The translations under genes and the position numbers were made by a program. Below, in pieces: positions 32,850-45,367 of a DNA stretch of 52,936 bases (the first letter of the stretch is position 1; each line of letters starts with the position of its first letter). The notes under the pieces were generated by a model. It saw nothing but the letters and a program-made list of their open reading frames with translations. It did not search any database and was not told the origin of the DNA. This stretch comes from Escherichia phage JEP7: the sequence record MT764207.1; one strand, 5' to 3'.

Positions 32850-34500
32850 TCCCCCAGTCGTAGTTCATGATTTGTGGGTAGGGTCGTTTAATCCATACCT
32901 TGATGCGCTTAGGAATAGCCAGCTCACCCTTACGGCGAATAAACTCATCGCATGTTTCAGGCGGTTCGGTTCCTGCAGCATTACGCCACCAGGCATCTGC
33001 CATTTGCTTAGCATTACCATGGGCCTCAATATTTACCCAAGTTGTGTACACTTCCAGGTTTGAATAATACACAACCTTTATACTGTCAGGCCGTCCTTGC
33101 TTCTGGAATAAAGAATAGTTTACCAGCGTAACATCCTTATCCACAACACGAAGCTGACCGTTAGTCATTACCTCTTCTTCTGATGAAGTGAAGGCAATAG
33201 CAGGTCCGTTAACTGTAAATTCAAATTCATGTCCGCACATCGGATATACACCATTCTCGTCTGGCGTACTTCCTTTAGCCGGATGTTTACATGTACGAGC
33301 AGCATAACCACTTACCTGGTGGCAGATAGGGCACTCTTTACCGCCAGGTGTTTTCTCTGACCGTTTCTTTTTCTTCTTACCAAGACGTGGCGGAACAGCC
33401 GGGTCATCAATAGGACCAAGGTCAATGGTGTTAGATGTGAAGTCCATAACAAGACAGTCATGCTTACCAGGCGCTGTACGTAATCCTCGACCGAGTATCT
33501 GCACCCACAAGGCAACAGACGTGGACGGGCGCAAGATGCCGAGCATATCAATTTCAGGATAGTCAAAGCCTGTTGTCAATACGTTTACGTTTACGCATAC
33601 CCTGGCACGTCCGCTTGTAAACTCTTCCAGTGCGGCTTCACGTTCTTTCTTTGTAAGACCGCCATGCACAACTACAGTCTGCCACCCGCGCAGATTAAAT
33701 TCGTCTGCTATGTTGTGGGCGTGCTCAACACTTGTGGCAAATACAAGAACGTGGTTCCTGTCTTTACCGTAGTGCATCATCTCACGAATAGCCGCGACTG
33801 TTATACTATGCTGGTTGGCTACCTTCTCGAGCTCTGACGGGATATAGTCACCCATCCTTTCGCCAACATTACTGGTGTCAATCTTGGTTAACACTTTCTT
33901 GTTGACCAGGCGCGACAGGAAGCCTTCATTTACCAGTCGGGTGAATGCGTCAGGTGTTGTAAGGTCATAGCAGATGTCGGTAAATATACCACAGTCAAGC
34001 AAGTGACCACCTGCCAGTCGATACGGAGTTGCTGTAAGGCCTGTTACCTTTACCTTAGGATTAAGCTCTTTGAAATGAGCAATAACCTTACGGTATGTTG
34101 TTTCAGACTTCTCAGGAACGAGATGGGCTTCGTCAATGAATATAAGATTGAACTTACCTGCTTCTTCCAGGTTCTTAATAATCGACTGTACTGACGCTAC
34201 AACTATACGACCTGAAAAGTCTTTGTGTCCTGCACCTGAAGAGTAGATTGATACTGGTGCTTGTGGCCAGTGGCGAACAATTGCTTTGGCGTCTTGTTCT
34301 ACCAGCTCCTTGACGTGTGTCAATATAAGAATGCGCTGACGTGGATAGCTGGTAAGAATATCCTTCATCAACATACCAAGCACAGGTGATTTACCTGAAC
34401 CTGTTGGCATGACAATAAGTGGGTTACCACTATAAGAATTGAAGTACGACCACCAAGCGGTCACAGCTTCTTGTTGATACCAGCGAGCTTCAAAAGCCAT
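32830..34500 (-). CDS. superfamily 2 DEAD/DEAH-box DNA helicase with C-terminal zinc-ribbon
   Basis: 556 aa; motif I VMPTGSGKS, motif II FIDEAH, motif III-like LTATP; C-terminal CPICH...C...C cluster. Confidence 0.8.
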   Translation of the reverse strand: MAFEARWYQQEAVTAWWSYFNSYSGNPLIVMPTGSGKSPVLGMLMKDILTSYPRQRILILTHVKELVEQDAKAIVRHWPQAPVSIYSSGAGHKDFSGRIVVASVQSIIKNLEEAGKFNLIFIDEAHLVPEKSETTYRKVIAHFKELNPKVKVTGLTATPYRLAGGHLLDCGIFTDICYDLTTPDAFTRLVNEGFLSRLVNKKVLTKIDTSNVGERMGDYIPSELEKVANQHSITVAAIREMMHYGKDRNHVLVFATSVEHAHNIADEFNLRGWQTVVVHGGLTKKEREAALEEFTSGRARVCVNVNVLTTGFDYPEIDMLGILRPSTSVALWVQILGRGLRTAPGKHDCLVMDFTSNTIDLGPIDDPAVPPRLGKKKKKRSEKTPGGKECPICHQVSGYAARTCKHPAKGSTPDENGVYPMCGHEFEFTVNGPAIAFTSSEEEVMTNGQLRVVDKDVTLVNYSLFQKQGRPDSIKVVYYSNLEVYTTWVNIEAHGNAKQMADAWWRNAAGTEPPETCDEFIRRKGELAIPKRIKVWIKRPYPQIMNYDWGNGYGAR

Positions 34501-34526
34501 TTATCATCTCCTCATTAACTTTATAT

Positions 34527-34555
34527 ATTATACCACTTCCTTGTGGTAAAGTATA
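34527..34555 (-). promoter_or_regulatory. promoter with extended -10 (TGgTATAAT) and CCAC/GTGG dyad
   Basis: minus-strand reading CTTTACCACAAGGAAGTGGTATAAT upstream of helicase gene. Confidence 0.45.
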
Positions 34556-34558
34556 CTT

Positions 34559-35437
34559 TTATTTTAAGGAAAGTTTAACGGGCTTCTCATCCTGCGGGAA
34601 GACATCAGCAGGGCGATAATCATCACAAGCTGCTAATTGCTCTTCGAGTGTTTCGAGTTCTTTCTGGTGCTTGTTGCAGTACCACACTTTGCCCTGGAGC
34701 GGTTTACTGTAATGGCAGGTTCTGCAGTTCCTGTCTGGCATTGCTCCTTTGTGGCACAGGTGATGGTATTCGCACATCCCTGGTTTGCACTCCCACCAAA
34801 TAGGCGATTCAGAAATCTTCGGCATATCCAAACCAGATTCCGCATATACAACAGCCTCCGCTTTACTCAGTTGTATGTCGCTTTCCAGTAAGTCAATCTC
34901 GACCACCTCAAAATACATCTCGTCGGTGTTCTTGTTGATTGCGATGTACACAGCTTGATTCAGCTTAAGCTTCCGCATGTATACCTGCATCTGGGCATAG
35001 TGTACCGGCTTACTTGCTTTAACAGACTTGAGCTTGACTAACTCTTTAAACGACTTATCGCCATGCGTCTTGAATTCAGCAAGTGCCCATACGCCTTTGT
35101 ATTTAATTACACAGTCACAAGACCCAGAGAAGATGTCATTGAATTCGTGTATGCGCCATTGCTTACCAGTCTTGGGATTGACGTCCAGCACCTCATCACA
35201 TACGGAACGAAGCCACTTTACAATTCTGCTTTCTTCAAGGTTACCTCGCTCAAACAGACGAAGTTGCTTAGCTGTAAACTTCTCCTTGAACGACCAGTGC
35301 AGAACGTGCCAAAGATAGCGATAGCAGTTGTGCCCTATCTGCGATGCTCCAAGATGCCCGCGTCGTTCTTCTCTTTCGTGGGCTTCGACTATCTTGATGT
35401 CAATACGTTTCTGCAGGTCGTCAAACGGACTTGGCAT
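34559..35437 (-). CDS. PD-(D/E)XK exonuclease (Cas4/RecB-nuclease-like) with C-terminal Cys cluster
   Basis: ATG 35437 with GAGGAG RBS; D...EFK motif (DCVIKYKGVWALAEFKTHGD); C-terminal CKPGMC...C..C....C cysteine cluster. Confidence 0.5.
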   Translation of the reverse strand: MPSPFDDLQKRIDIKIVEAHEREERRGHLGASQIGHNCYRYLWHVLHWSFKEKFTAKQLRLFERGNLEESRIVKWLRSVCDEVLDVNPKTGKQWRIHEFNDIFSGSCDCVIKYKGVWALAEFKTHGDKSFKELVKLKSVKASKPVHYAQMQVYMRKLKLNQAVYIAINKNTDEMYFEVVEIDLLESDIQLSKAEAVVYAESGLDMPKISESPIWWECKPGMCEYHHLCHKGAMPDRNCRTCHYSKPLQGKVWYCNKHQKELETLEEQLAACDDYRPADVFPQDEKPVKLSLK

Positions 35438-35906
35438 TGTTAAACTCCTCAACGCTGAATTCATCGTACACAATATTATGAGCCCACAAATGAGCGACGG
35501 CGTTTGCCATACTGTCTTTCCATTTGGATTGTGAAGCTGTATGAGCCAATGCAACTACACGAACCAGGTTAAGGTTGGCTATCAGCATATCTGCACAATG
35601 TTCGCACGGCGGGTAGGTTATGTAGATGGTAACCGGGCCTAAAGAAGGAGTGTCTAACTCACTCCTTATATTAGCTAAGGTATTTATCTCGCTATGAATA
35701 GTTAGAGCGTTCTTGAGGCTATTAGGCACTATTCTTATAGAGTCTAGCTGCGTAGGTAAGCCGTTATATCCAGTGGAAATAATACGCTTGTTCTGGTCCA
35801 CAAGAACACTACCGACTTGACGTTTCGGGTCCTTTGACCAGCTTGCAACTTCACAAGCTATGCGCATAAACCGCTTGTCCCACTTGTCCATCTTCTTCTT
35901 TTGCAT
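35421..35906 (-). CDS. dCMP deaminase (cytidine/deoxycytidylate deaminase family)
   Basis: 161 aa; zinc-binding motifs HSEINT and PCEHC. Confidence 0.85.
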   Translation of the reverse strand: MQKKKMDKWDKRFMRIACEVASWSKDPKRQVGSVLVDQNKRIISTGYNGLPTQLDSIRIVPNSLKNALTIHSEINTLANIRSELDTPSLGPVTIYITYPPCEHCADMLIANLNLVRVVALAHTASQSKWKDSMANAVAHLWAHNIVYDEFSVEEFNNAKSV

Positions 35907-35925
35907 GGTAGTCTCCGTATACGAA

Positions 35926-35945
35926 AATAGGGGCCGAAGCCCCTA
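35926..35945 (-). terminator. GGGGC-UUCG-GCCCC hairpin (possible terminator/attenuator)
   Basis: minus-strand hairpin GGGGCTTCGGCCCC followed by TATTTTCG, between SSB-like gene stop and dCMP deaminase start. Confidence 0.4.
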
Positions 35946-35967
35946 TTGAATATCTACTCGGCAGGGA

Positions 35968-36513
35968 TTACTCTTCCCAAGGAGCTGCTTCACCACCATC
36001 AGTACCAGGTGCCGTTGCAGTAGCACTCCCCTTCATTGAAGTACCCGCACCTGCACCTACTTTCTTCGTCGTCGATGCAGTTGCTTGAGACTGACCGCCT
36101 ACTGCAGTAGTTGCTTCAGTTGACGCTTTGTATTCGCGAATATCGTTTTGTGGGTCGTATTCACCGGTCTTGTCGATACGAACACCAACTTTACCGGCTA
36201 CAATACGGTTTTCCAGTAAGTCGGTAGAAGTCAGTTCAACAATACCCAGCGCACGACACAACGCAGACAGTTTGCGATGACCGATTTCAACAGCTTGTGC
36301 ATTAGGGTTGGAGTAGGTAATCATGTCAAATACAACACGGTTAGCGAACTCACCTTCCTGCACTTTCAGACGCAGGGACAGGTAAGAACCAGTGCCTGCT
36401 TTAGTCGGCTTCAGCTCAACCTCTTCAATCATGAAGTTGTACCAGCCTTTCGGGATAGGGTCAAAAGACTGTTGCGGTTCGACGGTAGAGCTGTTGAAGT
36501 TTAATTCAGCCAT
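35968..36513 (-). CDS. putative ssDNA-binding protein
   Basis: 181 aa; Gly/Ala/Thr-rich flexible C-terminal region ending in acidic tail (APWEE); adjacent to RecA-like ATPase; weak call. Confidence 0.3.
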   Translation of the reverse strand: MAELNFNSSTVEPQQSFDPIPKGWYNFMIEEVELKPTKAGTGSYLSLRLKVQEGEFANRVVFDMITYSNPNAQAVEIGHRKLSALCRALGIVELTSTDLLENRIVAGKVGVRIDKTGEYDPQNDIREYKASTEATTAVGGQSQATASTTKKVGAGAGTSMKGSATATAPGTDGGEAAPWEE

Positions 36514-36585
36514 TGTTTGGTATCCTGTTTAAGTTTAGTTTAATTTCGTTTAACGCTTTACCGGCAGCGTTCGGCCGTGATGCTT

Positions 36586-36615
36586 ATTATACGCCACTTT
36601 TTATCATGGCGTAAA
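36586..36615 (-). promoter_or_regulatory. promoter (TTTACG ... GTGGCGTATAAT)
   Basis: minus-strand reading GTTTACGCCATGATAAAAAGTGGCGTATAAT. Confidence 0.4.
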
Positions 36616-36620
36616 CACTT

Positions 36621-37505
36621 TTATTTGCTGGTTTCTTTCTCAGCTTGAGCGGCTTTCTTCGCCATCCAGGCTTGGTGCTTCTCTTTCGATTCGTCCGAAC
36701 CGATTTTAGTGAGCTGCACGTTTGGGTCGTCGTTCTGCATCTGTTCTGCAGCTCGACCTGTCAGGAGCAGGTAGCTGTCTGACTCCGGATGATAATACCA
36801 CAGCTGGTAAGGATGATAGCCTTGTAGCTTATCATAAATCCAGCCCAGATCTGCAGGTTCACGTGCATCCAGTTCACGGCCTGGTGCGTTACGGCACTTA
36901 GCTTCCCATTGATAGTCAGGTTGTGTCTGAATATAGCGCTCGCTGTTACCATTGGCATCAGGTGCAGTCATACGTAAAGCAAGCACCGCATCCATAAGGT
37001 ACGGTAACTGTTTAGGTAACTGCTGACCAGGCATAAGAGGTGAGTACAACATTGCACCAGTAACCTCGTCCTTGTTCTTCTCAAGCTTGCACAGGTATGC
37101 AACGCTGAAAGGCAAGTCACGGAACTGACGCATGATATACATCATCTTGTCGTTGGTATTACCATACGCCTGTCGTTTGTCATTAACCTGTGACTTCTCG
37201 TAGTCCAGACAAACTTCAGCAACATCTGATAGTGAGTCGAAAATCAGATGCTCATACTTCTGCGCATCCTTACTTTCGGTAAGCCATTTGTACAGCGCCA
37301 GAATGTCGTTGAACGTATTGATTGGCGTAGAGTCGATGTCAGCGTCTGCAATTGACATCAAACCGCCTTCGGCATTAATGACAAGAACCTTGTCATGAGG
37401 CAAGGTCTTAGCCAGGGTGGTTTTACCAACACCTGATGCGCCGTAAATAGCGACCTTAGGTCGCTTATTTTCTACGGCTTGTTTAGTAGATACAATCTGA
37501 ACCAT
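36621..37505 (-). CDS. RecA-like P-loop ATPase (Sak4-like recombination protein, putative)
   Basis: 294 aa; Walker A AIYGASGVGKTT near N-terminus; Walker B-like LIFD. Confidence 0.5.
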   Translation of the reverse strand: MVQIVSTKQAVENKRPKVAIYGASGVGKTTLAKTLPHDKVLVINAEGGLMSIADADIDSTPINTFNDILALYKWLTESKDAQKYEHLIFDSLSDVAEVCLDYEKSQVNDKRQAYGNTNDKMMYIMRQFRDLPFSVAYLCKLEKNKDEVTGAMLYSPLMPGQQLPKQLPYLMDAVLALRMTAPDANGNSERYIQTQPDYQWEAKCRNAPGRELDAREPADLGWIYDKLQGYHPYQLWYYHPESDSYLLLTGRAAEQMQNDDPNVQLTKIGSDESKEKHQAWMAKKAAQAEKETSK

Positions 37506-37735
37506 TAATGATAGTCCTCGTAAAGTGATTCTTCATCGCAGTACATACGATAAAGAGCTTCTTCGGCTTCTTCCAGGGTGTCAAACTCCTCGCCACAGAC
37601 GGAGTATTTTGTGGGTTCATCGAATGACTCGACGATGTGCCAGTCATGATGAATACCGTATGTCCACAAGTCGCAGTCATCTTTTGCAACAAGCTTACGT
37701 GTGGAACGAAATTGTGCTAGAGTATTGATGCTCAT
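37505..37735 (-). CDS. hypothetical protein
   Basis: ATG 37735 with AGGAGAG RBS (track ORF extends to 37774 across the promoter). Confidence 0.3.
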   Translation of the reverse strand: MSINTLAQFRSTRKLVAKDDCDLWTYGIHHDWHIVESFDEPTKYSVCGEEFDTLEEAEEALYRMYCDEESLYEDYH

Positions 37736-37762
37736 ATTCTCTCTCCTCATGTGTATAGAGGT

Positions 37763-37791
37763 ATTATACACCACTTACATGGGGTAAGTAC
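37763..37791 (-). promoter_or_regulatory. promoter (CTTACC ... GTGGTGTATAAT)
   Basis: minus-strand reading GTACTTACCCCATGTAAGTGGTGTATAAT. Confidence 0.4.
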
Positions 37792-37795
37792 ACTA

Positions 37796-38242
37796 CTATT
37801 TTACACTAACAGCTTGACACGATAGCCGTGACAAACCGAGGTTGGCTATGACACCATCGAGCAATACTCCTGCATGCTCTTCGTTGTATGCTTCTACCCA
37901 CAAAGGGATGGTCACGCCCTTCATATGGTCGCTGTATACGTTGAACGTAAACAATTGTTTGTGTGCTTTGTCAACACGCACAACAGTAAGATTACCATCC
38001 TCTCGTGGCGGAAGCTCAACGCCGTTATTACTCCAGAAGCTACGGAATTCGTCGCTGTTAACAATACCATGCACGACACGTTCTGTAAGTTCTGTTTTGA
38101 GGTCAGCACGTGCCTTTGTACTGATAAAGAAACGACAAGAGAAGAAGGCATTGACGTTTAGCACATCAACAGCATACACAACGTTATGCTCTTCAGTAGT
38201 TGGCGCTTTATAAACAATATATTTAGTCTTGAACAGGTCCAT
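37796..38242 (-). CDS. hypothetical protein
   Basis: ATG 38242 with GGAGAG RBS (track ORF starts at a GTG at 38278). Confidence 0.3.
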   Translation of the reverse strand: MDLFKTKYIVYKAPTTEEHNVVYAVDVLNVNAFFSCRFFISTKARADLKTELTERVVHGIVNSDEFRSFWSNNGVELPPREDGNLTVVRVDKAHKQLFTFNVYSDHMKGVTIPLWVEAYNEEHAGVLLDGVIANLGLSRLSCQAVSVK

Positions 38243-38290
38243 AGTACTCTCCAGGGAGGAAGACTGGCGGGCTTGCACCCGCCTAAGTTA

Positions 38291-39196
38291 TTACAGCAGT
38301 TCTGCTTTCAGCGCAGCGATACCATCGAGCAATGCTTTGATGTCCGGGTTAGATGCCGCCAGGTCAGCAACAACTGACTGACGACGACGTTCCAGCTCTT
38401 TCTCAACTTCCAGGTCGAGTCGTGCTGACGCTTCACGCAGTAAGTCTTCAACCTGCTGACGACGCTGATACTTGTTAAAGTCAGGCACATCAACCAGCCA
38501 TTTGAGAGTTGCAGTGTTATAGCCGGAAGTATTGGCTGCACTTACAGACACAACATCAACGAGCTTGGTACCGTTCAGCTCCGGATAATTAACATTGCGA
38601 ACGTCAACAACTGCTTTGTCACCTACACTTACTTTGCCGATGTACTTGTAAGTGTACACACGACCATTCGGTTCAAACTTAACACCAACAAACTTCAGTT
38701 TGTCGTCTGCAATAACCTCTTCCTCAACTTTGAAGTTGATTGCAGTATTCTTAACAGGTGCAGCCGCTTTGAGCTTAGCAACCATGTACTGTTCGGAATG
38801 AGACGGACGGCACAGACGGAAGACGTCTTCATTGTAGGTCAGCCAGTTACCGGTCTCATCCATGCATGCAATCTGATTAGTGCCATCCAGCGAACGAACG
38901 CCCGGGCGATTCTTCTCAACACGATACAGCTTACCTTCTTTCAGGTTAGCATAAGAACGGCGGGCGATACCCCAGTTGTGTTTTTCAGATTCATACTTAG
39001 CGAAACGGTCAACACTGAAGTTCTGCTTCAGGCCACGGTCGTCGATTACCCATAAGTTATCGTAAGCCCCGCAAAAAGAACCTAGGTTGGCATACACTTT
39101 GCCCTGCGTCAACAGGGAAGTGGTTCCCTCGTCAACACAGATAACAAAACCCAGAGCTTCGTGTGCTTTACCGCTGCGGTCAAATACTGTAGTCAT
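38291..39196 (-). CDS. hypothetical protein
   Basis: 301 aa; AAGGAAAC RBS; coiled-coil C-terminus. Confidence 0.3.
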   Translation of the reverse strand: MTTVFDRSGKAHEALGFVICVDEGTTSLLTQGKVYANLGSFCGAYDNLWVIDDRGLKQNFSVDRFAKYESEKHNWGIARRSYANLKEGKLYRVEKNRPGVRSLDGTNQIACMDETGNWLTYNEDVFRLCRPSHSEQYMVAKLKAAAPVKNTAINFKVEEEVIADDKLKFVGVKFEPNGRVYTYKYIGKVSVGDKAVVDVRNVNYPELNGTKLVDVVSVSAANTSGYNTATLKWLVDVPDFNKYQRRQQVEDLLREASARLDLEVEKELERRRQSVVADLAASNPDIKALLDGIAALKAELL

Positions 39197-39278
39197 TTCT
39201 TGTTTCCTTGTATACCAGTTTAATTGTATGCCAGAGTTATTCCCTGCGCATGTGCTTTATTGCTTAACCGTTAAAGAC

Positions 39279-39307
39279 ATTATATCATTAGCGAGTGGTG
39301 ACGTACA
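39279..39307 (-). promoter_or_regulatory. promoter with extended -10 (TGaTATAAT)
   Basis: minus-strand reading GTGTACGTCACCACTCGCTAATGATATAAT. Confidence 0.4.
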
Positions 39308-39310
39308 CAT

Positions 39311-39601
39311 TTATTTTAAGGCAGAAGTGCAAATAGCATCACACAAACAATAATGAGCACGGTCGTAGTCTTCAAACAAGAACACTTCGCCATTGGCGAC
39401 AACTTCATTACTGTTGACCTGCAGGCTAATACCTGAATGCAGAAGCACATCCATAGCCTGGTCCTTGTTCTTGTACGGGTCCCAAATAAGCTGGAAGCCT
39501 GACCCACAAAGGAGACATCCCTTGAGCTCCGGAAGAGTTGACTCCTTCACGGTCACATTACAAATCTTAGCCAGCTTAGCACGAGAATCGAGAGTACTCA
39601 T
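39311..39601 (-). CDS. hypothetical protein
   Basis: 96 aa; ATG overlaps upstream stop. Confidence 0.3.
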   Translation of the reverse strand: MSTLDSRAKLAKICNVTVKESTLPELKGCLLCGSGFQLIWDPYKNKDQAMDVLLHSGISLQVNSNEVVANGEVFLFEDYDRAHYCLCDAICTSALK

Positions 39602-39876
39602 TTACGTTTGTGTGGAGGTGTATATGTTTTCTTCGGTACGCCGAACATGGCCGCATATGTACCGACTTCTTTCTTTGTTGGCTTATCCACAATCTCGTCA
39701 ATCACGATTAAGTCATGGTTGATATTGCGAAAGACTTCAGCCGCTCTTTTCTCAACAGGAGTAAAGTCAATAACCAGCTCTTTGCCTATCAGGCTTTCTT
39801 TGAACTTGTCAAATAGCCATTTGTCACGCGGACCAGGATTGCCCATAAACATAACACGCATCTGCTTATTGTCCAT
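39598..39876 (-). CDS. hypothetical protein
   Basis: 92 aa basic protein. Confidence 0.3.
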   Translation of the reverse strand: MDNKQMRVMFMGNPGPRDKWLFDKFKESLIGKELVIDFTPVEKRAAEVFRNINHDLIVIDEIVDKPTKKEVGTYAAMFGVPKKTYTPPHKRK

Positions 39877-39944
39877 GGATGATATACCCCGTTATTTGTG
39901 TTGCCAGGTACAAACCGTATACCACACACCCAACTAGTATGGCA

Positions 39945-40244
39945 TCAAGAATAAGATGGGCTATCCTCACGTTTGATCTCCACGTTACGGCTGTTAACAA
40001 CTTCCAGGCTGGTACCATCATTTTTGTGGGTTACACGAATAAATGCAACACCCTCAGCCTGTGCCTGCTCAATAGCTTTATTCAGCACAACATTATCCTG
40101 TACCATATGACGTACGCGAGGAAGGATATTACAAAGAGGTTCCATCTCATCCATTCCTGCAGTACGCATGACGGACTTGAGAATGCCAAGATGATGCTTG
40201 TAACGGTCTTCAAGATTATACTTCTTGCTGTTATCTGATGCCAT
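39945..40244 (-). CDS. hypothetical protein
   Basis: ATG 40244 with GGAG RBS (track ORF starts at a TTG at 40256). Confidence 0.3.
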   Translation of the reverse strand: MASDNSKKYNLEDRYKHHLGILKSVMRTAGMDEMEPLCNILPRVRHMVQDNVVLNKAIEQAQAEGVAFIRVTHKNDGTSLEVVNSRNVEIKREDSPSYS

Positions 40245-40263
40245 GTAAGTCTCCAAAAGTCAA

Positions 40264-40282
40264 GGGGCTTGTGCTAAGCCCC
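40264..40282 (-). terminator. hairpin (possible terminator)
   Basis: GGGGCTT-GTGCT-AAGCCCC stem-loop between genes; minus-strand downstream CTTTTGG. Confidence 0.35.
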
Positions 40283-40288
40283 GTCTAA

Positions 40289-40738
40289 TTACTCGGCTTC
40301 TTCCGTAGCCGCCGGGGTGAATGTTACAGTCGGAATACCAGGCGAGGTCTTCACAACAGGGTCGACGATAGCCAGTTGTTCTGGTGTCAGGTTACGGTAT
40401 GCAGTAACTGACATTTCATACTTGGTTTTAAACAGCTTGGCAACAACAGTCTTCGGTAACTTCTTCATTACATCAGGCACAAGCTTCTGATCAAGTGAGC
40501 GGTTAACCTTCTGCTCAACCTTGAGTTTACCAGGTACGCCATGCATACTGAACTCAACAGTTTGTGTACCTTCTTTACCGCGGTTGATAATCATGTCGCG
40601 TTCAAGACGTGCTTTAATGGTCCGGCGCAACGTCTCCTGGTCAGCTTTCGCTTGTGCCATCCAGCGGTTCAGATTCGCCAGCTTGTCGTACAGCTGTTCC
40701 GTGTCCATCGATTCCAGTTCTTGTGGGTTCAATGCCAT
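40289..40738 (-). CDS. hypothetical protein
   Basis: ATG 40738 with GAGGA RBS; overlaps upstream ORF by about 98 nt. Confidence 0.3.
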   Translation of the reverse strand: MALNPQELESMDTEQLYDKLANLNRWMAQAKADQETLRRTIKARLERDMIINRGKEGTQTVEFSMHGVPGKLKVEQKVNRSLDQKLVPDVMKKLPKTVVAKLFKTKYEMSVTAYRNLTPEQLAIVDPVVKTSPGIPTVTFTPAATEEAE

Positions 40739-41009
40739 CAGTTGTTTCCTCAGGTTGCATGTGCATAGTTGCACCAATTAGTAGACAATAGTTATTGAAC
40801 ATTGTACGTAGTGCCTGGCCCGCAGCAATATCCGTTACGTCTATTATACCACTTTTAGTGGTGACGCGTAAAGCTTTTTCTTTCTTTGTTTTTTCCACGA
40901 ATGCAATGCTGATGATTTCTTCCGCATGGATTACGTGGATGGTACCTGCAAACTCACCAGTCTTAGCTGGCGCCTGGTACACTAACGACATAGACGGTTG
41001 GTTACTCAC
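40641..41009 (-). CDS. hypothetical protein
   Basis: GTG start at 41009 with AGGAG RBS; 3' part overlaps next gene and contains promoter-like sequence. Confidence 0.25.
   Translation of the reverse strand: MSNQPSMSLVYQAPAKTGEFAGTIHVIHAEEIISIAFVEKTKKEKALRVTTKSGIIDVTDIAAGQALRTMFNNYCLLIGATMHMQPEETTDGIEPTRTGIDGHGTAVRQAGESEPLDGTSES
40843..40872 (-). promoter_or_regulatory. promoter with extended -10 (TGgTATAAT) and CCAC/GTGG dyad
   Basis: minus-strand reading CTTTACGCGTCACCACTAAAAGTGGTATAAT. Confidence 0.4.
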
Positions 41010-41019
41010 TTAATTGCTC

Positions 41020-41457
41020 CTATTTGTATAAGTCCATCCAGTTACGATACTCGTCATAAAACCGGTCAAACTCGTTTTTGGTGAGTGCAATAGCAACACC
41101 ATTTACCAGATGCATGGTTCGTGTTTTGATGTTGACATACATGACATTGCTGTACGGGAATAAGCTACCGTCATTGTCAGTAAAATAAGTAGGTGTAATA
41201 TGAAGCGCATCACGCAATGCAACCAGTGATTCAACAGCTTCAGCGTGCCATTCACGTTTGAAGGTCATGCAAGGCGGTGCACCGTCTTCGTCCTGGGTAC
41301 CGCGCAAAGTAAGGTATACAATTTCGGCAGTATCATTGTGTACAATTACGCTAATGTCAACGATGTCGCTGGTACGGAAGGTAACAAAGTGCTCTTCAAT
41401 TACTTGTTCGTCGGTATTAGGGCTGACGCCCTGAAAGGTCTTGAGTGTGTGAAACAT
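41020..41457 (-). CDS. hypothetical protein
   Basis: ATG 41457 with AAGGAG RBS; last gene of the minus-strand replication block. Confidence 0.3.
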   Translation of the reverse strand: MFHTLKTFQGVSPNTDEQVIEEHFVTFRTSDIVDISVIVHNDTAEIVYLTLRGTQDEDGAPPCMTFKREWHAEAVESLVALRDALHITPTYFTDNDGSLFPYSNVMYVNIKTRTMHLVNGVAIALTKNEFDRFYDEYRNWMDLYK

Positions 41458-41550
41458 TGGTTGTATCTCCTTAGCAGAATGTACGTCTATTATGTATATA
41501 AAGGAGGGGAAAGTAAATAGATATAAATGTATAAAATACATAAAAGTCTA

Positions 41551-41580
41551 TTTACTCTGGTTTAATAACGTGTATATAAT
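41551..41580 (+). promoter_or_regulatory. sigma70-like promoter (TTTACT ... TATAAT)
   Basis: in AT-rich divergent intergenic region 41458-41610. Confidence 0.4.
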
Positions 41581-41610
41581 GAGAGCCCCACAAACAAGAG
41601 GAGAGACTCA

Positions 41611-41943
41611 ATGATAAAGCCAAAACTGTTGCGGCATATTCGCAACGGTATTAAGCTACTCGCCGAAGGCAATGAATATGCCTGCAAGCAACGCGGTATT
41701 ACAAAAGTCGGCCTGTTCAATAAAGAGTTACCAACTCGCTACTTTACCAAATCACCACTAACACTCGTACCTGCAGCGGAGTATTATAAAGACCCCGAAG
41801 CAGCCCGGGCTAAAATCAAGGAAGGTCTTGACCGACTTGTAGAGGAAGGCTATTTGACAGTACGTCAACACACTGAATCATCTTATTACTATAAGCCAAC
41901 TTCTAAGGTAACCAGCAATGACAATGACGAGTCAGCCGAGTGA
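41611..41943 (+). CDS. hypothetical protein (possible regulator)
   Basis: 110 aa basic protein with GAGGAGAG RBS, first gene of rightward operon containing primase-helicase. Confidence 0.3.
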   Translation: MIKPKLLRHIRNGIKLLAEGNEYACKQRGITKVGLFNKELPTRYFTKSPLTLVPAAEYYKDPEAARAKIKEGLDRLVEEGYLTVRQHTESSYYYKPTSKVTSNDNDESAE

Positions 41944-44452
41944 TATTCTCGGTCTGAAATACTTTAAGCCAGAAGGGATTCCCCAAGTCTTCAAAGATAT
42001 GAAGCGCTGGGCTATCTTTGAGCTAACGTACGAAGACGAGACTCTTGAAGTTCAATCCAAACCGAAGAAACCTGCAAGAGCGCCATCAGGCCGTTCCTTC
42101 AGCACAACAGTGCCTGAAGAGTGGATGACTTTCGACGACGCCCTGACACGTTGTATTCGCAATCGTGAAATGAAGATTAAAGCTGTACAGGGTAATATCA
42201 CCTTTGTGCCGGCTTTGGTTGTTCCTCGCCAGTGGTACTTTGTTGACCTGGACAACCATGAAGATAACCCAGACATTGAAGCTACCCACAAGGCGATAAT
42301 TGAGGGGACCCGTGGTGCTTATGCCGAGACGTCAATCTCTGGCAAAGGGCAACACATTGCAATCCCTTTACCCTGGACTGCAGCAACATCTAAAGAGAAA
42401 GACGAACAGCTGGACATCAAAATCCAGAAGGCTGAGATGTTCCTGGTAATGACGGGTAACGTGTTGAGTGAGTTCAATGCTAATCCTGTTTCAGCCCGTG
42501 AATGGCATGCAGCAATTGAGAAGTTCTTTCTTGAATCAAGCGCACCTGACATTGATGTTGAGTTTGAGCAAGACGAAGACCGTGGCGAAGAGTATGACAA
42601 AGAGCTGTACGAACAGCTAGCCGACAATACTCGCTGGGCTTTAGAACACTATCTGAATGAGCATGCACCAGACGGTGTTGGTGTGAGTAACGACGGTTCT
42701 GAACGTTTAAGCCGTATCCTAAAAGACTTGCTTCGTGTAACCCGTAACTATGAAGTTACACAACGCATCTTTATGGCCAGCAAAGCTGCAGCATACGAAG
42801 GTCGTCGTCCTAGCCGACATAACTTGTCTGTTGATAAGTACCATCAGTGGTTCAGTCGTGTCGGTAAGACTGTGCTGAAAGAGATGCAACGTGATGGCTT
42901 ATTCGTTAAGACCAAGTTTGCTCTTGACATCAACAAAGAGTTAACCAAGAATTCTGGTGTCTCCCTGGCTGAGAATGTTGAGTTCAAAGTCAACGACGAT
43001 ATTCTGCCATCTGATGTATTCGTCAGGACGGCTCCGTCCGGGTTTAAACGGCTTATTGCTGAGATACAGGATAACATATCTCCTGCTAACAGGGTTAACG
43101 ACTATGCCATCGGCACAGCTCTTAACATCCTGAGCAACTGCGCTGGTCGCAAGTATGTTTGTCCAGTAGGCGGTCATGCTAACTTCCTGGTAACCAACAT
43201 CATTCTTGTGGGTGGTTCATCAATCGGTAAATCGTTGTATACTGAGATGTTCCCACAAATCCAGGCAAGCTTACCTGACACATCGCCTATCAGCCTTAAT
43301 CGTATTCCAAGGGAACAGACTTTTGCAACCAGGACGTTTGCTGAACTGATGTCCAACCCGTCATACCATTCAGTACAGTTGTTCTATCCTGAATTTGGTC
43401 TGGCTTTAGGTTCAGGCTTACGCATGAATCCTAACAACCCGGACAACTTTCAGAAAGCTCTGATGGACGCTTCAACCAAGCGTAAGGTTGGTGGTATACT
43501 GACAGGTATCAAACGTGCTAATGCTGACAATGATGTCAAGACAGTAAGCGAACCGTGTTACTCTATCCTGGGTGACTCCACTCAAGAGCTTATTCTTGAC
43601 AACACCCGGAAGCAAGACTTCTCAAGTGGCTTTTTGCCCCGCTTCCTGTTCATCCCGAACTATGAACGAGCGGAGTTTGCCAAACCTGAGAAGGTAGGAC
43701 GTCGCCAGCAGATTCGCCGTACTCAATTCTCCAAAGAGCTGATTGAGAAGCTGGAAGCAATCGCTTATGTGAATGCTATCCCGCCTAACGGTAAACTAAG
43801 GCATGACCCGATTCCTATTTACGACGAATCGGACGATGATGACTTCCTGTATGAGTACCAGTGCAATATTAATGACATGCGCAAGTATTACAGGGACAAC
43901 GAAGTAGCATCCGCCTTTGTGGGCCGAATGGGTGAGTATGTATTCAACATAGCAGCACTGATTGGCTTACTCGACAACTGGGATGCTCCTGTAATGACCA
44001 GGGACAACATCGAATGGGCTTACAAATATGTTCTTCGTTGTATAACCGCCTGGGTCAATAACACAAGCAGGATAGTCGCACCACCAACTACCAACGCCGA
44101 AGTAGTGGACGGCTTCCTAAAAGTCTACAGGGACATTTTGGCCCTTTACACCAAAAGAGGATGGTCTGGCATTGTCAAGCATTATCCCGAAGGTGTTGTA
44201 AGAAGTATCCGGGAAGAACACCTCCAGATGAATGGTTTAAGCATATATGCTATTCGTCAGTCTTTGAGCTGGTTTAAATCGAATTACGGTTTTAACATCA
44301 CAGCTAATAACAAAGTCATTGACGGTATGCTCCAGGATATGATTGACCAGGACTATTTAGCAGTACAAGTATATAAGCCCACAAGAGGCCGATCTGCTAA
44401 CATTTACTGCCTGACGGAGCGAGGATATGACACTGCTAAGAAGTTAAAATAA
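41918..44452 (+). CDS. DNA primase / SF3 helicase fusion (D5/P4-type)
   Basis: 844 aa; C-terminal Walker A GGSSIGKS in a helicase-like domain; N-terminal region with acidic DxD-like motifs (FVDLDNHED); replication-block position. Confidence 0.65.
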   Translation: MTMTSQPSDILGLKYFKPEGIPQVFKDMKRWAIFELTYEDETLEVQSKPKKPARAPSGRSFSTTVPEEWMTFDDALTRCIRNREMKIKAVQGNITFVPALVVPRQWYFVDLDNHEDNPDIEATHKAIIEGTRGAYAETSISGKGQHIAIPLPWTAATSKEKDEQLDIKIQKAEMFLVMTGNVLSEFNANPVSAREWHAAIEKFFLESSAPDIDVEFEQDEDRGEEYDKELYEQLADNTRWALEHYLNEHAPDGVGVSNDGSERLSRILKDLLRVTRNYEVTQRIFMASKAAAYEGRRPSRHNLSVDKYHQWFSRVGKTVLKEMQRDGLFVKTKFALDINKELTKNSGVSLAENVEFKVNDDILPSDVFVRTAPSGFKRLIAEIQDNISPANRVNDYAIGTALNILSNCAGRKYVCPVGGHANFLVTNIILVGGSSIGKSLYTEMFPQIQASLPDTSPISLNRIPREQTFATRTFAELMSNPSYHSVQLFYPEFGLALGSGLRMNPNNPDNFQKALMDASTKRKVGGILTGIKRANADNDVKTVSEPCYSILGDSTQELILDNTRKQDFSSGFLPRFLFIPNYERAEFAKPEKVGRRQQIRRTQFSKELIEKLEAIAYVNAIPPNGKLRHDPIPIYDESDDDDFLYEYQCNINDMRKYYRDNEVASAFVGRMGEYVFNIAALIGLLDNWDAPVMTRDNIEWAYKYVLRCITAWVNNTSRIVAPPTTNAEVVDGFLKVYRDILALYTKRGWSGIVKHYPEGVVRSIREEHLQMNGLSIYAIRQSLSWFKSNYGFNITANNKVIDGMLQDMIDQDYLAVQVYKPTRGRSANIYCLTERGYDTAKKLK

Positions 44453-44463
44453 GTAAGTAAATC

Positions 44464-44506
44464 AAGGGCTTGGGTAATTGTAAAAATCCTAAGCCCTTAT
44501 TTTTTA
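44464..44506 (+). terminator. rho-independent terminator
   Basis: AAGGGCTTGGG / CCTAAGCCCTT stem with 13-nt loop followed by ATTTTTTAAG directly after primase-helicase stop. Confidence 0.6.
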
Positions 44507-44599
44507 AGCTTATTTTACAAACTGATTAATATTTAAACTATAATTAAATATATGGGCTCTAAGAGTATGATTTTATTACTCTTTTACAAATCATAATAT

Positions 44600-44860
44600 A
44601 TGAGCTCCTTATAAAAGATTAAGGGGGTAAAAAAGGGGGATACAAGTACCGGATAAAGGGGGTATATATTTATTTATTATTATTATTATTATTATATATT
44701 ATTAATTATATTAGAAGTAATAAAAACAGCTACTTAGAGGCGTCTATATGTATGATCCGGTTTATCTCTTTATTAATATCAGAACCGGATGAAAAAAATT
44801 TACGCCGGCGAAAAAAATAAAAAAGCCGGATTGATAAATAAATCTGTAGACGTTTACACT
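44600..44860. repeat. AT-rich iteron/microsatellite region (candidate replication origin or regulatory hub)
   Basis: three AAGGGGG(T/A)A copies (44622, 44634, 44656); (TTA)7 microsatellite about 44676-44697; repeated CCGGAT/ATCCGG/GCCGGC motifs each followed by A-runs. Confidence 0.4.
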
Positions 44861-44882
44861 GTAAAAAAGATGTGCTACAATA
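44854..44882 (+). promoter_or_regulatory. sigma70-like promoter (TTTACA-N17-TACAAT)
   Basis: upstream of gene starting 44936. Confidence 0.45.
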
Positions 44883-44935
44883 TTTATCAATGTTGCTGAT
44901 TACCAAAACTTTGAATTGTATACGAGGCTGAATAA

Positions 44936-45367
44936 ATGGTTAATATAAGACAGAAAGGACAGAACTTTGAGCGTAAAATGGCTAAGAAGTTTAATAGCTC
45001 GTTCGGATTAACTGTTGAGCGCAATCTTCAACAGTCTATTAATGGCGGGGATGACTTGCTGGGTGTGCCGTTTTTCAGTGTTGAACTGAAGAAGCACAAT
45101 ACCAAGTCTATCGGAACATGGTGGAGACAGTGTGCGGCATCGGCAAAGGCTCAGAACAAGATGCCGGTACTGATATACGAACTACCAAGAAAACAGCCTA
45201 CCGTGGTGATGAATAAGGCTGATGTGATTGACTGTTTTCCAAGTGGCACGACTTTTAACGAGGCATCGAACCGCCTCTTTGTGGGTCTAGTAGAATTAAC
45301 ATGGGAACAATTTTGCCGGGTCTACAACTATTACGTTGCGCCCGGCACTCAATATCACGTCAATTAA
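44936..45367 (+). CDS. putative PD-(D/E)XK-type nuclease (Holliday-junction-resolvase-like)
   Basis: 143 aa; motif GGDDLLGVPFFSVELKKH consistent with D...ExK nuclease core; weak call. Confidence 0.3.
   Translation: MVNIRQKGQNFERKMAKKFNSSFGLTVERNLQQSINGGDDLLGVPFFSVELKKHNTKSIGTWWRQCAASAKAQNKMPVLIYELPRKQPTVVMNKADVIDCFPSGTTFNEASNRLFVGLVELTWEQFCRVYNYYVAPGTQYHVN

What the first reader, a model, noticed from the sequence alone, without database searches (positions are those of the whole stretch)
40641..40738. About 98-nt out-of-frame overlap between two minus-strand genes, with a promoter inside the upstream one
The ORF 40641-41009 (GTG start, AGGAG RBS) and the ORF 40289-40738 (ATG, GAGGA RBS) overlap in different frames, and the promoter-like element at 40843-40872 lies inside the upstream ORF. 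Either this is a genuine overprinted region, or one ORF is extended by a sequencing frameshift.
Basis: seen in the sequence. Interest (0 to 1): 0.3.

Follow-up and report, generated by a model that had tools for sequence, protein, structure and literature searches.

The report
Real gene overlap hiding a conserved promoter
Two neighbouring phage genes really do overlap by 98 bases, but the overlapped end of the upstream protein is a floppy, freely drifting tail, and what evolution keeps is a promoter and ribosome-binding site for the downstream gene written inside the upstream one; this is ordinary compact phage gene layout.

Summary
Gene A (40641-41009, minus strand, GTG start) and gene B (40289-40738, ATG start, Pfam DUF7173) overlap by 98 nt, with B in the +1 frame. 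A sigma-70-type promoter (TTTACG-N18-TGgTATAAT, 40872-40843) lies inside A.

The window is a Rosemountvirus (BP63-like) phage. A tblastn search found full-length A in 54 phage records, and the 24 loci I inspected all keep the same frame relation. This rules out a sequencing frameshift.

It is not a region selected in two frames:
- Substitutions in the overlap follow only B's codon periodicity.
- A's stop codon sits at five positions among the long-overlap relatives, and overlaps across lineages range from none to 140 nt.
- AlphaFold predicts the overlapped part of A as disordered.

The promoter is what is conserved. In 11 lineages whose A proteins share about 30% identity, the -35 and -10 hexamers are kept even at wobble positions and across amino-acid changes. 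One lineage keeps the promoter although A's reading frame is broken there. B's GAGGA-N8-ATG is invariant in Rosemountvirus, Loughboroughvirus and the KE25 group. A hairpin terminator follows B in Rosemountvirus and Loughboroughvirus.

Best reading: B is a nested promoter-gene-terminator unit, and A's tail is a tolerated run-on. This is an ordinary kind of arrangement, so interest is low. The functions of A and B remain unknown.

The parts
40641..41009 (-). Gene A: 122-aa protein of unknown function, restricted to Rosemountvirus, Loughboroughvirus and related phages. Residues 8-77 form a folded domain (5 strands plus a helix). Residues 86-122 form a disordered tail.
   Evidence: ORF list. Coding periodicity of substitutions. 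Homologs at about 30% identity in 11 lineages. The start codon is ATG at the same position in phages birk and IntR. AlphaFold gives pLDDT 82-90 for the body and below 50 for residues 86-122. The fHy-Eco03 homolog Gp75 was detected by LC-MS/MS with 60% coverage.
41017..41021 (-). AGGAG Shine-Dalgarno sequence of A, overlapping the TAG stop (41020-41022) of the upstream gene.
   Evidence: Read directly from the sequence.
40289..40738 (-). Gene B: 149-aa DUF7173 protein (phrog_2480), function unknown.
   Evidence: Pfam PF23791, E=8e-44, covering residues 6-145. PHROGs match. 99-100% identical in most Rosemountvirus genomes. AlphaFold mean pLDDT 86. The fHy-Eco03 homolog Gp74 was detected by LC-MS/MS.
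40641..40738 (-). 98-nt overlap. It encodes A residues 91-122 plus the A stop (frame 0) and B residues 1-33 (frame +1).
   Evidence: Substitution pattern follows B's codon periodicity only.
40843..40872 (-). Internal sigma-70-type promoter for B. -35 TTTACG at 40872-40867, 18-nt spacer, extended -10 TGgTATAAT at 40851-40843. It encodes A residues A-L-R-V-T-T-K-S-G-I-I.
   Evidence: Promoter scan. The block is invariant in 23 loci from three lineages. Wobble positions within the hexamers and TG are invariant in 5 of 5 cases, against 2 of 64 elsewhere in A (Fisher p=1.9e-6). The element is kept in 11 lineages through amino-acid changes, and in L030 although A's frame is broken there. PhagePromoter independently predicted a promoter at the homologous place in phage AEV23.
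40874..40894 (-). A-rich tract directly upstream of the -35 hexamer; possibly an UP-element-like sequence.
   Evidence: The region is A-rich in every lineage examined: aaagaaagaaaaagc, gcagaaaaataatgt, cggaaataaaaaggt, and GAAATAAAAAG in L030. A role as an UP element is inferred, not tested.
40747..40751 (-). GAGGA Shine-Dalgarno sequence of B, lying inside A, where it encodes the Glu-Glu of the P-E-E motif.
   Evidence: GAGGA-N8-ATG is invariant in Rosemountvirus, Loughboroughvirus and the KE25 group. Other metagenomic lineages carry GGAG-type variants.
40254..40282 (-). Intrinsic-terminator-like hairpin GGGGCTT-AGCAC-AAGCCCC followed by a T-rich run, starting 7 nt after B's stop codon.
   Evidence: Terminator scan. 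Folding energy -12.3 kcal/mol. An equivalent hairpin plus T-run follows B in SE13, birk, ZCSE2, SE4 (different loop and stem) and Erwinia phage RF1. It is absent in the KE25 group.

Best explanation
The window is a Rosemountvirus (BP63-like) phage genome. A and B are two real, separately initiated genes in the leftward early-gene cluster, which diverges from the rightward primase/helicase genes.

B (DUF7173) is the constrained gene. Its expression signals are written into A's coding sequence:
- a sigma-70 promoter (TTTACG-N18-TGgTATAAT) at A codons 46-56;
- an inferred transcription start near 40836, giving a leader of about 100 nt;
- a GAGGA Shine-Dalgarno sequence at A codons 87-88;
- an intrinsic terminator directly after B's stop codon.

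B can therefore be made in two ways. One is from a short monocistronic transcript that carries no A start codon. The other is by read-through from the upstream operon promoter.

A's functional part is the folded domain, residues 8-77. A has no in-frame stop before B begins, so ribosomes translating A run on into B's first 33 codons in the other frame. This adds a disordered tail whose sequence is dictated by B's codons. Its length is set by wherever a T at a B third position first creates a stop.

Shown here:
- the anatomy of the locus;
- that both genes are real;
- selection on B's frame only in the overlap;
- a wandering A stop codon;
- DNA-level conservation of the promoter.

Inferred, not shown:
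- that the promoter fires;
- the transcription start site;
- that the short transcript spares B initiation from interference by ribosomes elongating in A's frame.

The biochemical functions of A and B remain unknown.
For: Identity of the genome.

The overlap is real and recurrent. Full-length A is found in 54 phage records. The frame relation is +1 in all 24 inspected loci that carry both genes.

Only B's frame is selected in the overlap.
- Parsimony counts on 15 Rosemountvirus sequences give B3/A1 sites 0.531 substitutions per site inside the overlap against 0.590 for B3 outside (p=0.79).
- A1 sites in the body of A change at 0.172 (p=0.002).
- A3 (= B2) sites change at 0.030 in the overlap against 0.500 in the body of A (p=2e-5).
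- B's dS in its first 33 codons is not consistently depressed: 0.82 vs 0.33, 0.94 vs 1.08, 0.55 vs 0.91 and 0.29 vs 0.50 in four pairs.

The A stop is mobile. Overlaps are 92, 98, 125, 140 and 26 nt, 20 and 26 nt, and 17, 17, 26 nt or none.

The tail is disordered: pLDDT is below 50 for residues 86-122 and 82-90 for residues 8-77.

The promoter is conserved at the DNA level.
- It is invariant in three lineages.
- Wobble positions are invariant in 5 of 5 cases within the element against 2 of 64 elsewhere (p=1.9e-6).
- In 11 lineages the codon before the Leu encodes Ala, Val, Cys or Arg but always ends in T. The Leu is always TTA. The Gly/Ser/Asp codon always ends in T. None of the 63 other wobble columns is invariant.
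- L030 keeps the block GAAATAAAAAG...TGTATAATAACTATCAA although A's frame has two stops there, and B starts about 40 nt downstream of the -10 hexamer.
- The same TTTAC-N19-TATAAT pattern occurs at three intergenic positions just upstream of genes in this window.
- PhagePromoter predicted the homologous site in phage AEV23.

The terminator after B is conserved.

Both proteins were detected in fHy-Eco03.

B's true start is M1 or at the latest M11. The Pfam profile aligns from residue 6. Conserved N-terminal residues lie inside the overlap. GAGGA-N8-ATG is conserved.
Against: - No transcript or transcription-start data exist for any of these phages, so promoter activity is inferred from sequence only.
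- The conserved block also encodes the best-conserved peptide motif of A (L-R/H-V-x-T-x-x-G-I). Part of the conservation is therefore due to the protein; the wobble-position argument is what separates the two causes.
- Phage SPHG1 lacks the promoter and A codons 1-71 yet keeps B. The promoter is therefore dispensable, at least when read-through transcription is available.
- The KE25 group lacks the terminator after B.
- A's frame stays open for 31-46 codons in two genera separated by dS of about 1. This is somewhat longer than synonymous recoding predicts (P = 0.005-0.03 per lineage), so weak selection for having a tail is not excluded.
Confidence: 0.75

Rival explanations
1. A's overlapped tail is a functional overprinted region. 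It would be an intrinsically disordered, acidic C-terminal extension selected for its presence, length or composition rather than its exact sequence, so premature stops are avoided in A's frame.
For: - Given B's protein sequence and codon usage, A's frame stays open over the observed length in only 2.5-3% (window), 1.2% (SE13) and 0.5-1.3% (ZCSE2, SE4) of synonymous recodings.
- T-ending B codons are used in about half of the stop-prone contexts outside the overlap (11-14 of 24-25) but are absent from the 8-11 such contexts inside it, apart from the terminal stop.
- Rosemountvirus and Loughboroughvirus differ by dS of about 1 in B, yet both keep long tails.
- The window's tail has 7 acidic residues against 3.5 expected (p about 0.001).
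Against: - There is no site-wise constraint in A's frame, and B's dS in the overlap is not consistently reduced.
- The stop moves among very close relatives, giving A proteins of 120, 122 and 131 aa.
- Seven other lineages have overlaps of 26 nt or less, or none.
- The acidic enrichment is not reproduced in SE13 (p=0.04), ZCSE2 (0.14-0.43) or SE4 (0.3-0.65).
- T depletion is not significant in contexts that cannot form stops (p=0.08-0.77), so it is largely a consequence of how the overlap is defined.
- The window's case was selected because the overlap is long, which is an ascertainment bias.
- A rough neutral estimate gives about 7% probability that two lineages both stay stop-free over dS of about 1. 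This is my inference, not a tool result.
Confidence: 0.13
2. The overlap is an artefact: a sequencing or assembly indel has falsely extended A, or A or B is mis-called.
For: - Long out-of-frame overlaps in automated annotations are often artefacts (general knowledge).
- GenBank records disagree. A is left unannotated in LPSEYT, ZCSE2, AEV23, emiel and ES2-BCU-3, and B's start is placed at several different Met codons.
Against: - The region is identical in register in 15 Rosemountvirus genomes, aligned without a single gap over 721 nt.
- The same frame relation holds in all 24 inspected loci carrying both genes, from different laboratories and platforms.
- A's body shows coding periodicity.
- B's N-terminus inside the overlap is conserved as far as Erwinia phage RF1 and is covered by the Pfam model.
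- Both proteins were seen by mass spectrometry in fHy-Eco03.
Confidence: 0.01
3. A and B are joined by a programmed ribosomal frameshift in the overlap, producing an A-B fusion protein, as in phage tail-assembly chaperones.
For: - B's frame is open 13 codons upstream of its ATG in the window and 26 codons in ZCSE2.
- The frame relation is the same in all lineages.
Against: - The shift needed is +1 (or -2), not the common -1.
- I saw no slippery X_XXY_YYZ heptamer on reading the junction. No systematic motif search was run.
- In the KE25 group, B's frame opens only one codon before its ATG.
- L032 has no overlap at all.
- B has its own conserved Shine-Dalgarno sequence and ATG at a fixed 8-nt spacing.
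- The leader shows no significant RNA structure (z=-0.76) and there is no Rfam hit.
Confidence: 0.02
4. The conserved DNA block inside A is not a promoter but another DNA- or RNA-level signal, for example a protein-binding site or a translational pause at rare TTA/ATA codons.
For: - The evidence for selection is at the DNA level only; function is not measured.
- TTA and ATA are rare codons in enterobacteria (general knowledge), so conserved rare codons could reflect a pause site.
Against: - Conservation maps precisely onto the two hexamers at an 18-nt spacing, while the spacer's wobble positions vary.
- The T that starts each hexamer is kept as the last base of codons for different amino acids (Ala/Val/Cys/Arg and Gly/Ser/Asp). 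This is not a rare-codon effect.
- The -10 variants seen (TATGAT, TACAAT) keep the critical T1, A2 and T6 positions.
- L030 keeps the block outside an intact reading frame, directly upstream of B.
- The same pattern marks three intergenic positions just upstream of genes in this window.
Confidence: 0.07

Closest known systems
Same-strand gene overlaps in bacteria and phages created by loss or displacement of the upstream gene's stop codon (3'-end elongation); see the survey in Salmonella, PMC3843671 (abstract seen)
   Same: - The two genes are co-directional and out of frame.
- The upstream gene runs on into the downstream gene until the next chance stop.
- The overlap is gained, lengthened, shortened or lost between close relatives.
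- Only the older frame is constrained.
   Different: - At 98-140 nt the overlap is much longer than the usual 1-4 nt.
- It has persisted across two genera.
Microviridae (phiX174/G4) overlapping genes with promoters inside coding sequence, e.g. promoter P_B and gene B inside gene A (from my own knowledge; not checked with a tool)
   Same: - The promoter and ribosome-binding site of the downstream gene lie inside the upstream gene's coding sequence.
- The two genes are read in different frames over a shared stretch.
   Different: - In phiX174 both frames encode essential, constrained proteins (true dual coding).
- Here only B's frame is constrained, and the shared stretch is the dispensable tail of A.
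Viral overprinting (de novo birth of a protein region in an alternative frame); review PMC8227390 (abstract seen)
   Same: - A protein segment is encoded in the +2 frame of an older gene.
- That segment is compositionally biased and predicted to be disordered, as young overprinted regions typically are.
   Different: - There is no evidence of selection on the new frame.
- The stop position is unstable, and the tail is absent or very short in most lineages.
Internal (intragenic) sigma-70 promoters that create nested transcription units in phage early or middle regions, e.g. T4 and lambda (from my own knowledge)
   Same: - A host-type promoter embedded in an upstream ORF gives the downstream gene a second, independent route of transcription.
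- A terminator closes the unit.
   Different: - Activity is not demonstrated here.
- The conservation evidence is purely comparative.
Programmed -1 frameshift in tail assembly chaperone genes (lambda G/GT type)
   Same: Two overlapping ORFs in different frames that are conserved in relatives.
   Different: - The shift required here would be +1, not -1.
- I saw no slippery site on reading the junction.
- B has its own conserved Shine-Dalgarno sequence and ATG.
- The genes are not in the tail module.
- One lineage has no overlap at all.

Membership tests
Genuine same-strand gene overlap (both ORFs are expressed genes) | The upstream ORF is a real protein-coding gene. | tested here: met
   - Codon-position substitution rates are 0.17, 0.035 and 0.50.
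- Homologs exist in 11 lineages.
- The fold is predicted with confidence.
- The fHy-Eco03 homolog was detected by LC-MS/MS with 60% coverage.
Genuine same-strand gene overlap (both ORFs are expressed genes) | The downstream gene really starts upstream of the upstream gene's stop codon. | tested here: met
   - The Pfam DUF7173 model aligns from residue 6.
- Conserved residues L20, N24, W26 and A30 lie inside the overlap.
- GAGGA-N8-ATG is conserved.
- Even the latest homology-compatible start, M11, leaves a 68-nt overlap.
Genuine same-strand gene overlap (both ORFs are expressed genes) | The arrangement is reproduced in independently sequenced relatives (not an indel artefact). | tested here: met
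   - All 24 inspected loci carrying both genes show the +1 frame relation.
- Full-length A is found in 54 phage records.
- The 721-nt alignment of 15 genomes has no gaps.
Functional dual-coding / overprinted region | Purifying selection acts in both reading frames, seen as depressed synonymous rates in the older frame. | tested here: not met
   - B3 rate is 0.531 in the overlap against 0.590 outside (p=0.79).
- A first positions change three times faster in the tail than in the body of A (p=0.002).
- B's dS is not consistently reduced in the overlap.
Functional dual-coding / overprinted region | The extent of the second frame is stable (conserved stop codon) across relatives. | tested here: not met
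   Overlaps are 92, 98, 125, 140 and 26 nt, 20 and 26 nt, and 17, 17, 26 nt or none.
Functional dual-coding / overprinted region | The alternative frame stays open longer than chance allows. | tested here: inconclusive
   P is 0.005-0.05 per lineage by synonymous recoding. This is confounded by ascertainment and by shared ancestry (dS about 1).
Sigma-70 (host RNA polymerase) promoter | -35 and -10 hexamers close to consensus with a 16-18 nt spacer. | tested here: met
   TTTACG-N18-TATAAT with TGn, 10 of 12 matches plus an extended -10.
Sigma-70 (host RNA polymerase) promoter | Conservation of the hexamers beyond what the overlapping coding sequence requires. | tested here: met
   - Wobble positions are invariant in 5 of 5 cases within the element against 2 of 64 elsewhere (p=1.9e-6).
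- In 11 lineages, Mann-Whitney p=4e-4.
- The block is retained in L030 without an intact A frame.
Sigma-70 (host RNA polymerase) promoter | Transcription initiates 6-9 nt downstream of the -10 hexamer. | not testable with these tools
   No transcriptome or 5'-end data for Rosemountvirus or Loughboroughvirus turned up in the paper searches.
Intrinsic (Rho-independent) terminator after B | A GC-rich hairpin followed by a T-run, conserved in relatives. | tested here: met
   - Hairpin at 40282-40264 followed by TTGACTTTT.
- Equivalent hairpins with changed loop and stem occur in ZCSE2, SE4 and RF1.
- Termination activity itself was not tested.
Pfam DUF7173 (gene B) | Whole-protein score above the Pfam gathering threshold. 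| tested here: met
   149.5 bits against a cutoff of 27, covering profile positions 2-143 of 145.
Programmed ribosomal frameshift (G/GT type) | A slippery heptamer in the overlap, and a downstream ORF lacking its own initiation signals. | tested here: not met
   - B has a conserved Shine-Dalgarno sequence and ATG.
- The required shift is +1.
- I saw no X_XXY_YYZ motif on reading the junction; no systematic search was run.
- L032 has no overlap.
- No stimulatory RNA structure is predicted.
Translational coupling by termination-reinitiation | The upstream stop lies within a few nucleotides of the downstream start (ATGA, TAATG and similar). | tested here: not met
   A's stop lies 98 nt downstream of B's ATG in the window, and 17-140 nt downstream in relatives.

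The most novel reading that the evidence does not exclude
The long run-on tail of A in the Rosemountvirus and Loughboroughvirus clade is not neutral. It would be a young, overprinted, intrinsically disordered acidic extension kept open by selection against stops but free in sequence. Together with the nested promoter-B-terminator unit it would set up a switch: on operon transcripts, ribosomes elongating A occlude B's initiation site, and B is made mainly from its own short transcript. That would make this a tractable natural series for watching a protein region being born in an alternative frame, with overlaps from none to 140 nt in otherwise syntenic phages.
Probability: 0.12. Interest if true: 0.4.

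Novelty: new member of a known kind. Interest (0 to 1): 0.2.

Why it matters
Mostly it matters for annotation.

- This gene pair is annotated inconsistently across the inspected GenBank records. A is missing in several, antisense ORFs are called in its place in two, and B's start is moved downstream to hide the overlap.
- The comparative evidence fixes both genes: A from GTG 41009 to TGA 40641, and B from ATG 40738.
- It gives a clean worked example for judging long overlaps. Codon-position substitution counts show which frame is under selection.
- The most conserved DNA inside a fast-evolving small phage gene can be a regulatory signal for its neighbour.
- The natural series of overlap lengths (none to 140 nt), plus one lineage that kept the promoter but lost the frame, could serve as a small model for how overlaps arise by stop-codon displacement.

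It does not reveal a new mechanism.

Tried and rejected
1. Function of A and B. None of the following gave a functional assignment.
- Pfam, PHROGs and PADLOC give only DUF7173 and phrog_2480 for B and nothing for A.
- PDB sequence search found nothing.
- The 'virion-associated' label in fHy-Eco03 covers 48 of 81 predicted gene products. I use it only as evidence that the proteins are expressed.

2. IMG/VR scan with B returned only two near-identical loci. The word-index protein search with A returned five close relatives. The useful diversity came from the phage GenBank collection and from Logan/ENA contigs carrying B homologs.

3. RNA-level explanations found nothing. The putative 137-nt leader is not unusually structured (z=-0.76) and there is no Rfam match in 39800-41700.

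4. Acidic-composition selection on the tail was significant in the window (p about 0.001) but not in SE13, ZCSE2 or SE4. I rejected it as not robust.

5. T depletion at B third positions in the overlap is explained mostly by the definition of an open frame. Contexts that cannot form stops are not significantly depleted.

6. The programmed-frameshift and termination-reinitiation coupling models were rejected on anatomy.

7. An apparent shared 'AAGTGG' block before the -10 in three minus-strand promoter-like sites is out of register between sites. I treated it as coincidence.

Full report
**What is there.**
- ORF A is 40641..41009 on the minus strand (122 aa). It starts at GTG 41009, with AGGAG 7 nt upstream.
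- ORF B is 40289..40738 on the minus strand (149 aa). It starts at ATG 40738, with GAGGA 8 nt upstream.
- The two share 40641-40738, which is 98 nt. B is in the +1 frame relative to A.
- The promoter scan finds TTTACG-N18-TATAAT with an extended-10 TG at 40872-40843, inside A. It also finds a hairpin plus T-run terminator at 40282-40264, just after B.

**Where the window comes from.**
- The region matches Rosemountvirus (BP63-like) phages of Salmonella and E. coli at 95-98% identity.
- The nearest record is Escherichia phage vB_EcoM_PiR. It has the same length and coordinates, and differs by substitutions only.
- A and B lie in the leftward cluster of small early genes that diverges from the rightward primase/helicase genes.
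- The PiR and BP63 records annotate the same 98-nt overlap.

**Both ORFs are genes.**
- B matches Pfam DUF7173 (149.5 bits, cutoff 27, residues 6-145) and phrog_2480. It is 98-100% identical across Rosemountvirus genomes.
- A has no family assignment. Its non-overlapped part shows clear coding periodicity of substitutions: 0.17, 0.035 and 0.50 per site at codon positions 1, 2 and 3 on a parsimony tree of 15 genomes.
- A has homologs at about 30% identity in Loughboroughvirus (ZCSE2, SE4, S144, AEV23), in the KE25/fHy-Eco03 group and in several metagenomic lineages.
- The GTG start of A is ATG in phages birk and IntR.
- In fHy-Eco03, both homologs were detected by LC-MS/MS of phage preparations. 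Gp75 (A) had 60% coverage and Gp74 (B) 31% (PMC8145870).

**It is not a sequencing artefact.**
- tblastn finds full-length A in 54 phage records.
- In all 24 loci I inspected that carry both genes, A is in frame 0 and B in frame +1.
- Fifteen Rosemountvirus sequences align over 721 nt without a single gap.
- B's true start cannot be moved downstream of the overlap. The Pfam model and the conserved residues L20, N24, W26 and A30 lie inside it. GAGGA-N8-ATG is invariant in the three main lineages.

**It is not dual-coding under selection.**
- In this frame relation, B's third codon position is A's first.
- B3/A1 sites change at 0.531 substitutions per site in the overlap. B3 sites outside it change at 0.590 (p=0.79). 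A first positions in the body of A change at only 0.172 (p=0.002).
- A third positions in the overlap (= B second positions) change at 0.030, against 0.500 in the body of A (p=2e-5).
- Pairwise dS of B in its first 33 codons is not consistently lower than in the rest of the gene.
- A's stop codon moves. A is 120 aa in SPLA2 and KE24, 122 aa in most genomes and 131 aa in SE13, birk, SenM-1 and brorfarstad. The overlap is 140 nt in Loughboroughvirus and 26 nt in the KE25 group.
- Metagenomic lineages have overlaps of 20 and 26 nt and of 17, 17 and 26 nt, or none at all in L032.
- AlphaFold models A residues 8-77 as five strands plus a helix, with pLDDT 82-90. Residues 86-122 have pLDDT below 50. 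The overlap covers residues 91-122.
- The simplest reading is that A lacks a stop before B begins. Its ribosomes run on until a T at a B wobble position happens to create TAA, TAG or TGA.

**A caveat on the tail.**
- Given B's protein sequence and codon usage, A's frame stays open this long in only 0.5-5% of synonymous recodings.
- Rosemountvirus and Loughboroughvirus both keep long tails although B's dS between them is about 1.
- This could reflect weak selection for having a tail. It is confounded by shared ancestry and by the fact that the finding was chosen because the overlap is long.
- T depletion at B wobble positions is largely confined to stop-forming contexts, which follows from the definition of an open frame.
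- An excess of acidic residues in the window's tail is not reproduced in other lineages.
- I keep this idea as the main rival, at about 13%.

**The promoter is what is conserved.**
- In an alignment of Rosemountvirus, Loughboroughvirus and the KE25 group, TTTAC and TGGTATAAT are invariant, although the A proteins share only about 30% identity.
- In a codon alignment, third positions are invariant in 2 of 64 columns outside the element. All 5 third positions that fall within the hexamers and the TG are invariant (Fisher p=1.9e-6).
- In the 11-lineage codon alignment:
  - The codon before the Leu encodes Ala, Val, Cys or Arg but always ends in T.
  - The Leu is always TTA.
  - The Gly/Ser/Asp codon always ends in T.
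  - None of the 63 other wobble columns is invariant (Mann-Whitney p=4e-4).
- The -10 variants seen across these lineages are TATAAT, TATGAT and TACAAT, which all keep T1, A2 and T6.
- In L030, A's frame has two stops at this point. The block GAAATAAAAAG...TGTATAATAACTATCAA is still retained, and B starts about 40 nt downstream of the -10 hexamer with no overlap.
- The same TTTAC-N19-TATAAT pattern occurs at three intergenic positions just upstream of genes in this window: 36586-36615, 37763-37792 and 41551-41580.
- PhagePromoter independently called the homologous site in phage AEV23.
- A hairpin terminator directly follows B in Rosemountvirus, Loughboroughvirus and Erwinia phage RF1, with different stems and loops.
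- B is therefore bracketed by its own promoter and terminator.

**Mechanism proposed.**
- B can be transcribed from the upstream operon promoter or from its own promoter inside A.
- The short transcript would start near 40836. It has a leader of about 100 nt with no notable structure and carries no A start codon. B would then be translated without ribosomes passing over its initiation site in another frame.
- These steps are inferred. No transcript data exist for these phages.
- SPHG1 has lost A codons 1-71 together with the promoter, yet keeps B. The promoter is therefore not indispensable.

**Comparison with known systems.**
- The arrangement belongs to well-known classes: same-strand overlaps made by stop-codon displacement, and intragenic promoters forming nested transcription units. 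phiX174 is the textbook phage example.
- It fails the tests for a functional overprinted region, for a programmed frameshift and for termination-reinitiation coupling.
- Fold and sequence searches gave no function for A or B.

**Verdict.**
- Sequencing error is rejected.
- 'Overprinted region' holds only in the trivial sense that two frames are translated.
- The internal promoter is real by comparative criteria.
- This is a new, well-documented member of a known kind. Interest is low, at about 0.2. Its main value is in correcting inconsistent annotations of this gene pair.

Noticed in passing
window 33000-45000 (whole window likely): The window is collinear with GenBank OM313461 (phage PiR). 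Both are 52,936 bases long. In 12 kb there are 267 substitutions and no indel, spread very unevenly (0 to 68 per kb). This suggests a mosaic close relative or a reference-guided consensus rather than an independent assembly.
   Followed up: partly
window 36586-36615 (-), 37763-37792 (-), 41551-41580 (+): Three further matches to TTTAC-N19-TATAAT (one of them with a single mismatch) all lie in intergenic gaps directly upstream of genes. They are probably the host-type early promoters of this phage and belong to the same motif class as the one inside gene A.
   Followed up: partly
L030 1-155 (Logan SRR27912338 contig): In this relative, A's reading frame is interrupted by two stops exactly at the promoter, and the C-terminal half of A is missing. 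The A-rich tract, the -35-like and -10 sequences and the following AACTATCAA are still retained about 40 nt upstream of B. The contig starts here, so the upstream gene is incomplete.
   Followed up: partly
L012 1100-1300 (Salmonella phage SPHG1): A codons 1-71 and the internal promoter are replaced by an unrelated 342-nt gene. The same gene sits upstream of A in Loughboroughvirus and in SenM-1. B and its Shine-Dalgarno sequence are intact. This is a natural deletion showing that A and the promoter are dispensable.
   Followed up: partly
L013 110-2143 (Salmonella phage UPF_BP2): There is a 534-bp tandem duplication covering the 3' part of the homolog of gene 41020-41457 and the 5' part of A. 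It may be an assembly artefact or a mis-resolved terminal repeat.
   Followed up: no
GenBank records of relatives (L003, L004, L007, L011, L014-L024): Annotation of this gene pair is inconsistent. A is not annotated in LPSEYT, ZCSE2, AEV23, emiel and ES2-BCU-3. Antisense ORFs are annotated in its place in SenM-1 and KE24. B's start is placed at M1, M11, M27 or later to shrink or remove the overlap.
   Followed up: yes
window 41918-41943 (+): The 110-aa gene 41611-41943 and the primase/helicase gene overlap by 20-26 nt on the plus strand. The primase start is either 41918 or 41924, depending on the caller. This is another out-of-frame same-strand overlap in the same region.
   Followed up: no
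window 40254-40282 (-): Immediately after the terminator hairpin that follows B comes TTGACT, a good -35 hexamer. Phage S144's record annotates a promoter at the equivalent spot. A terminator-promoter junction may therefore separate B from the next gene (39945-40256).
   Followed up: no
[not shown]
   Followed up: partly
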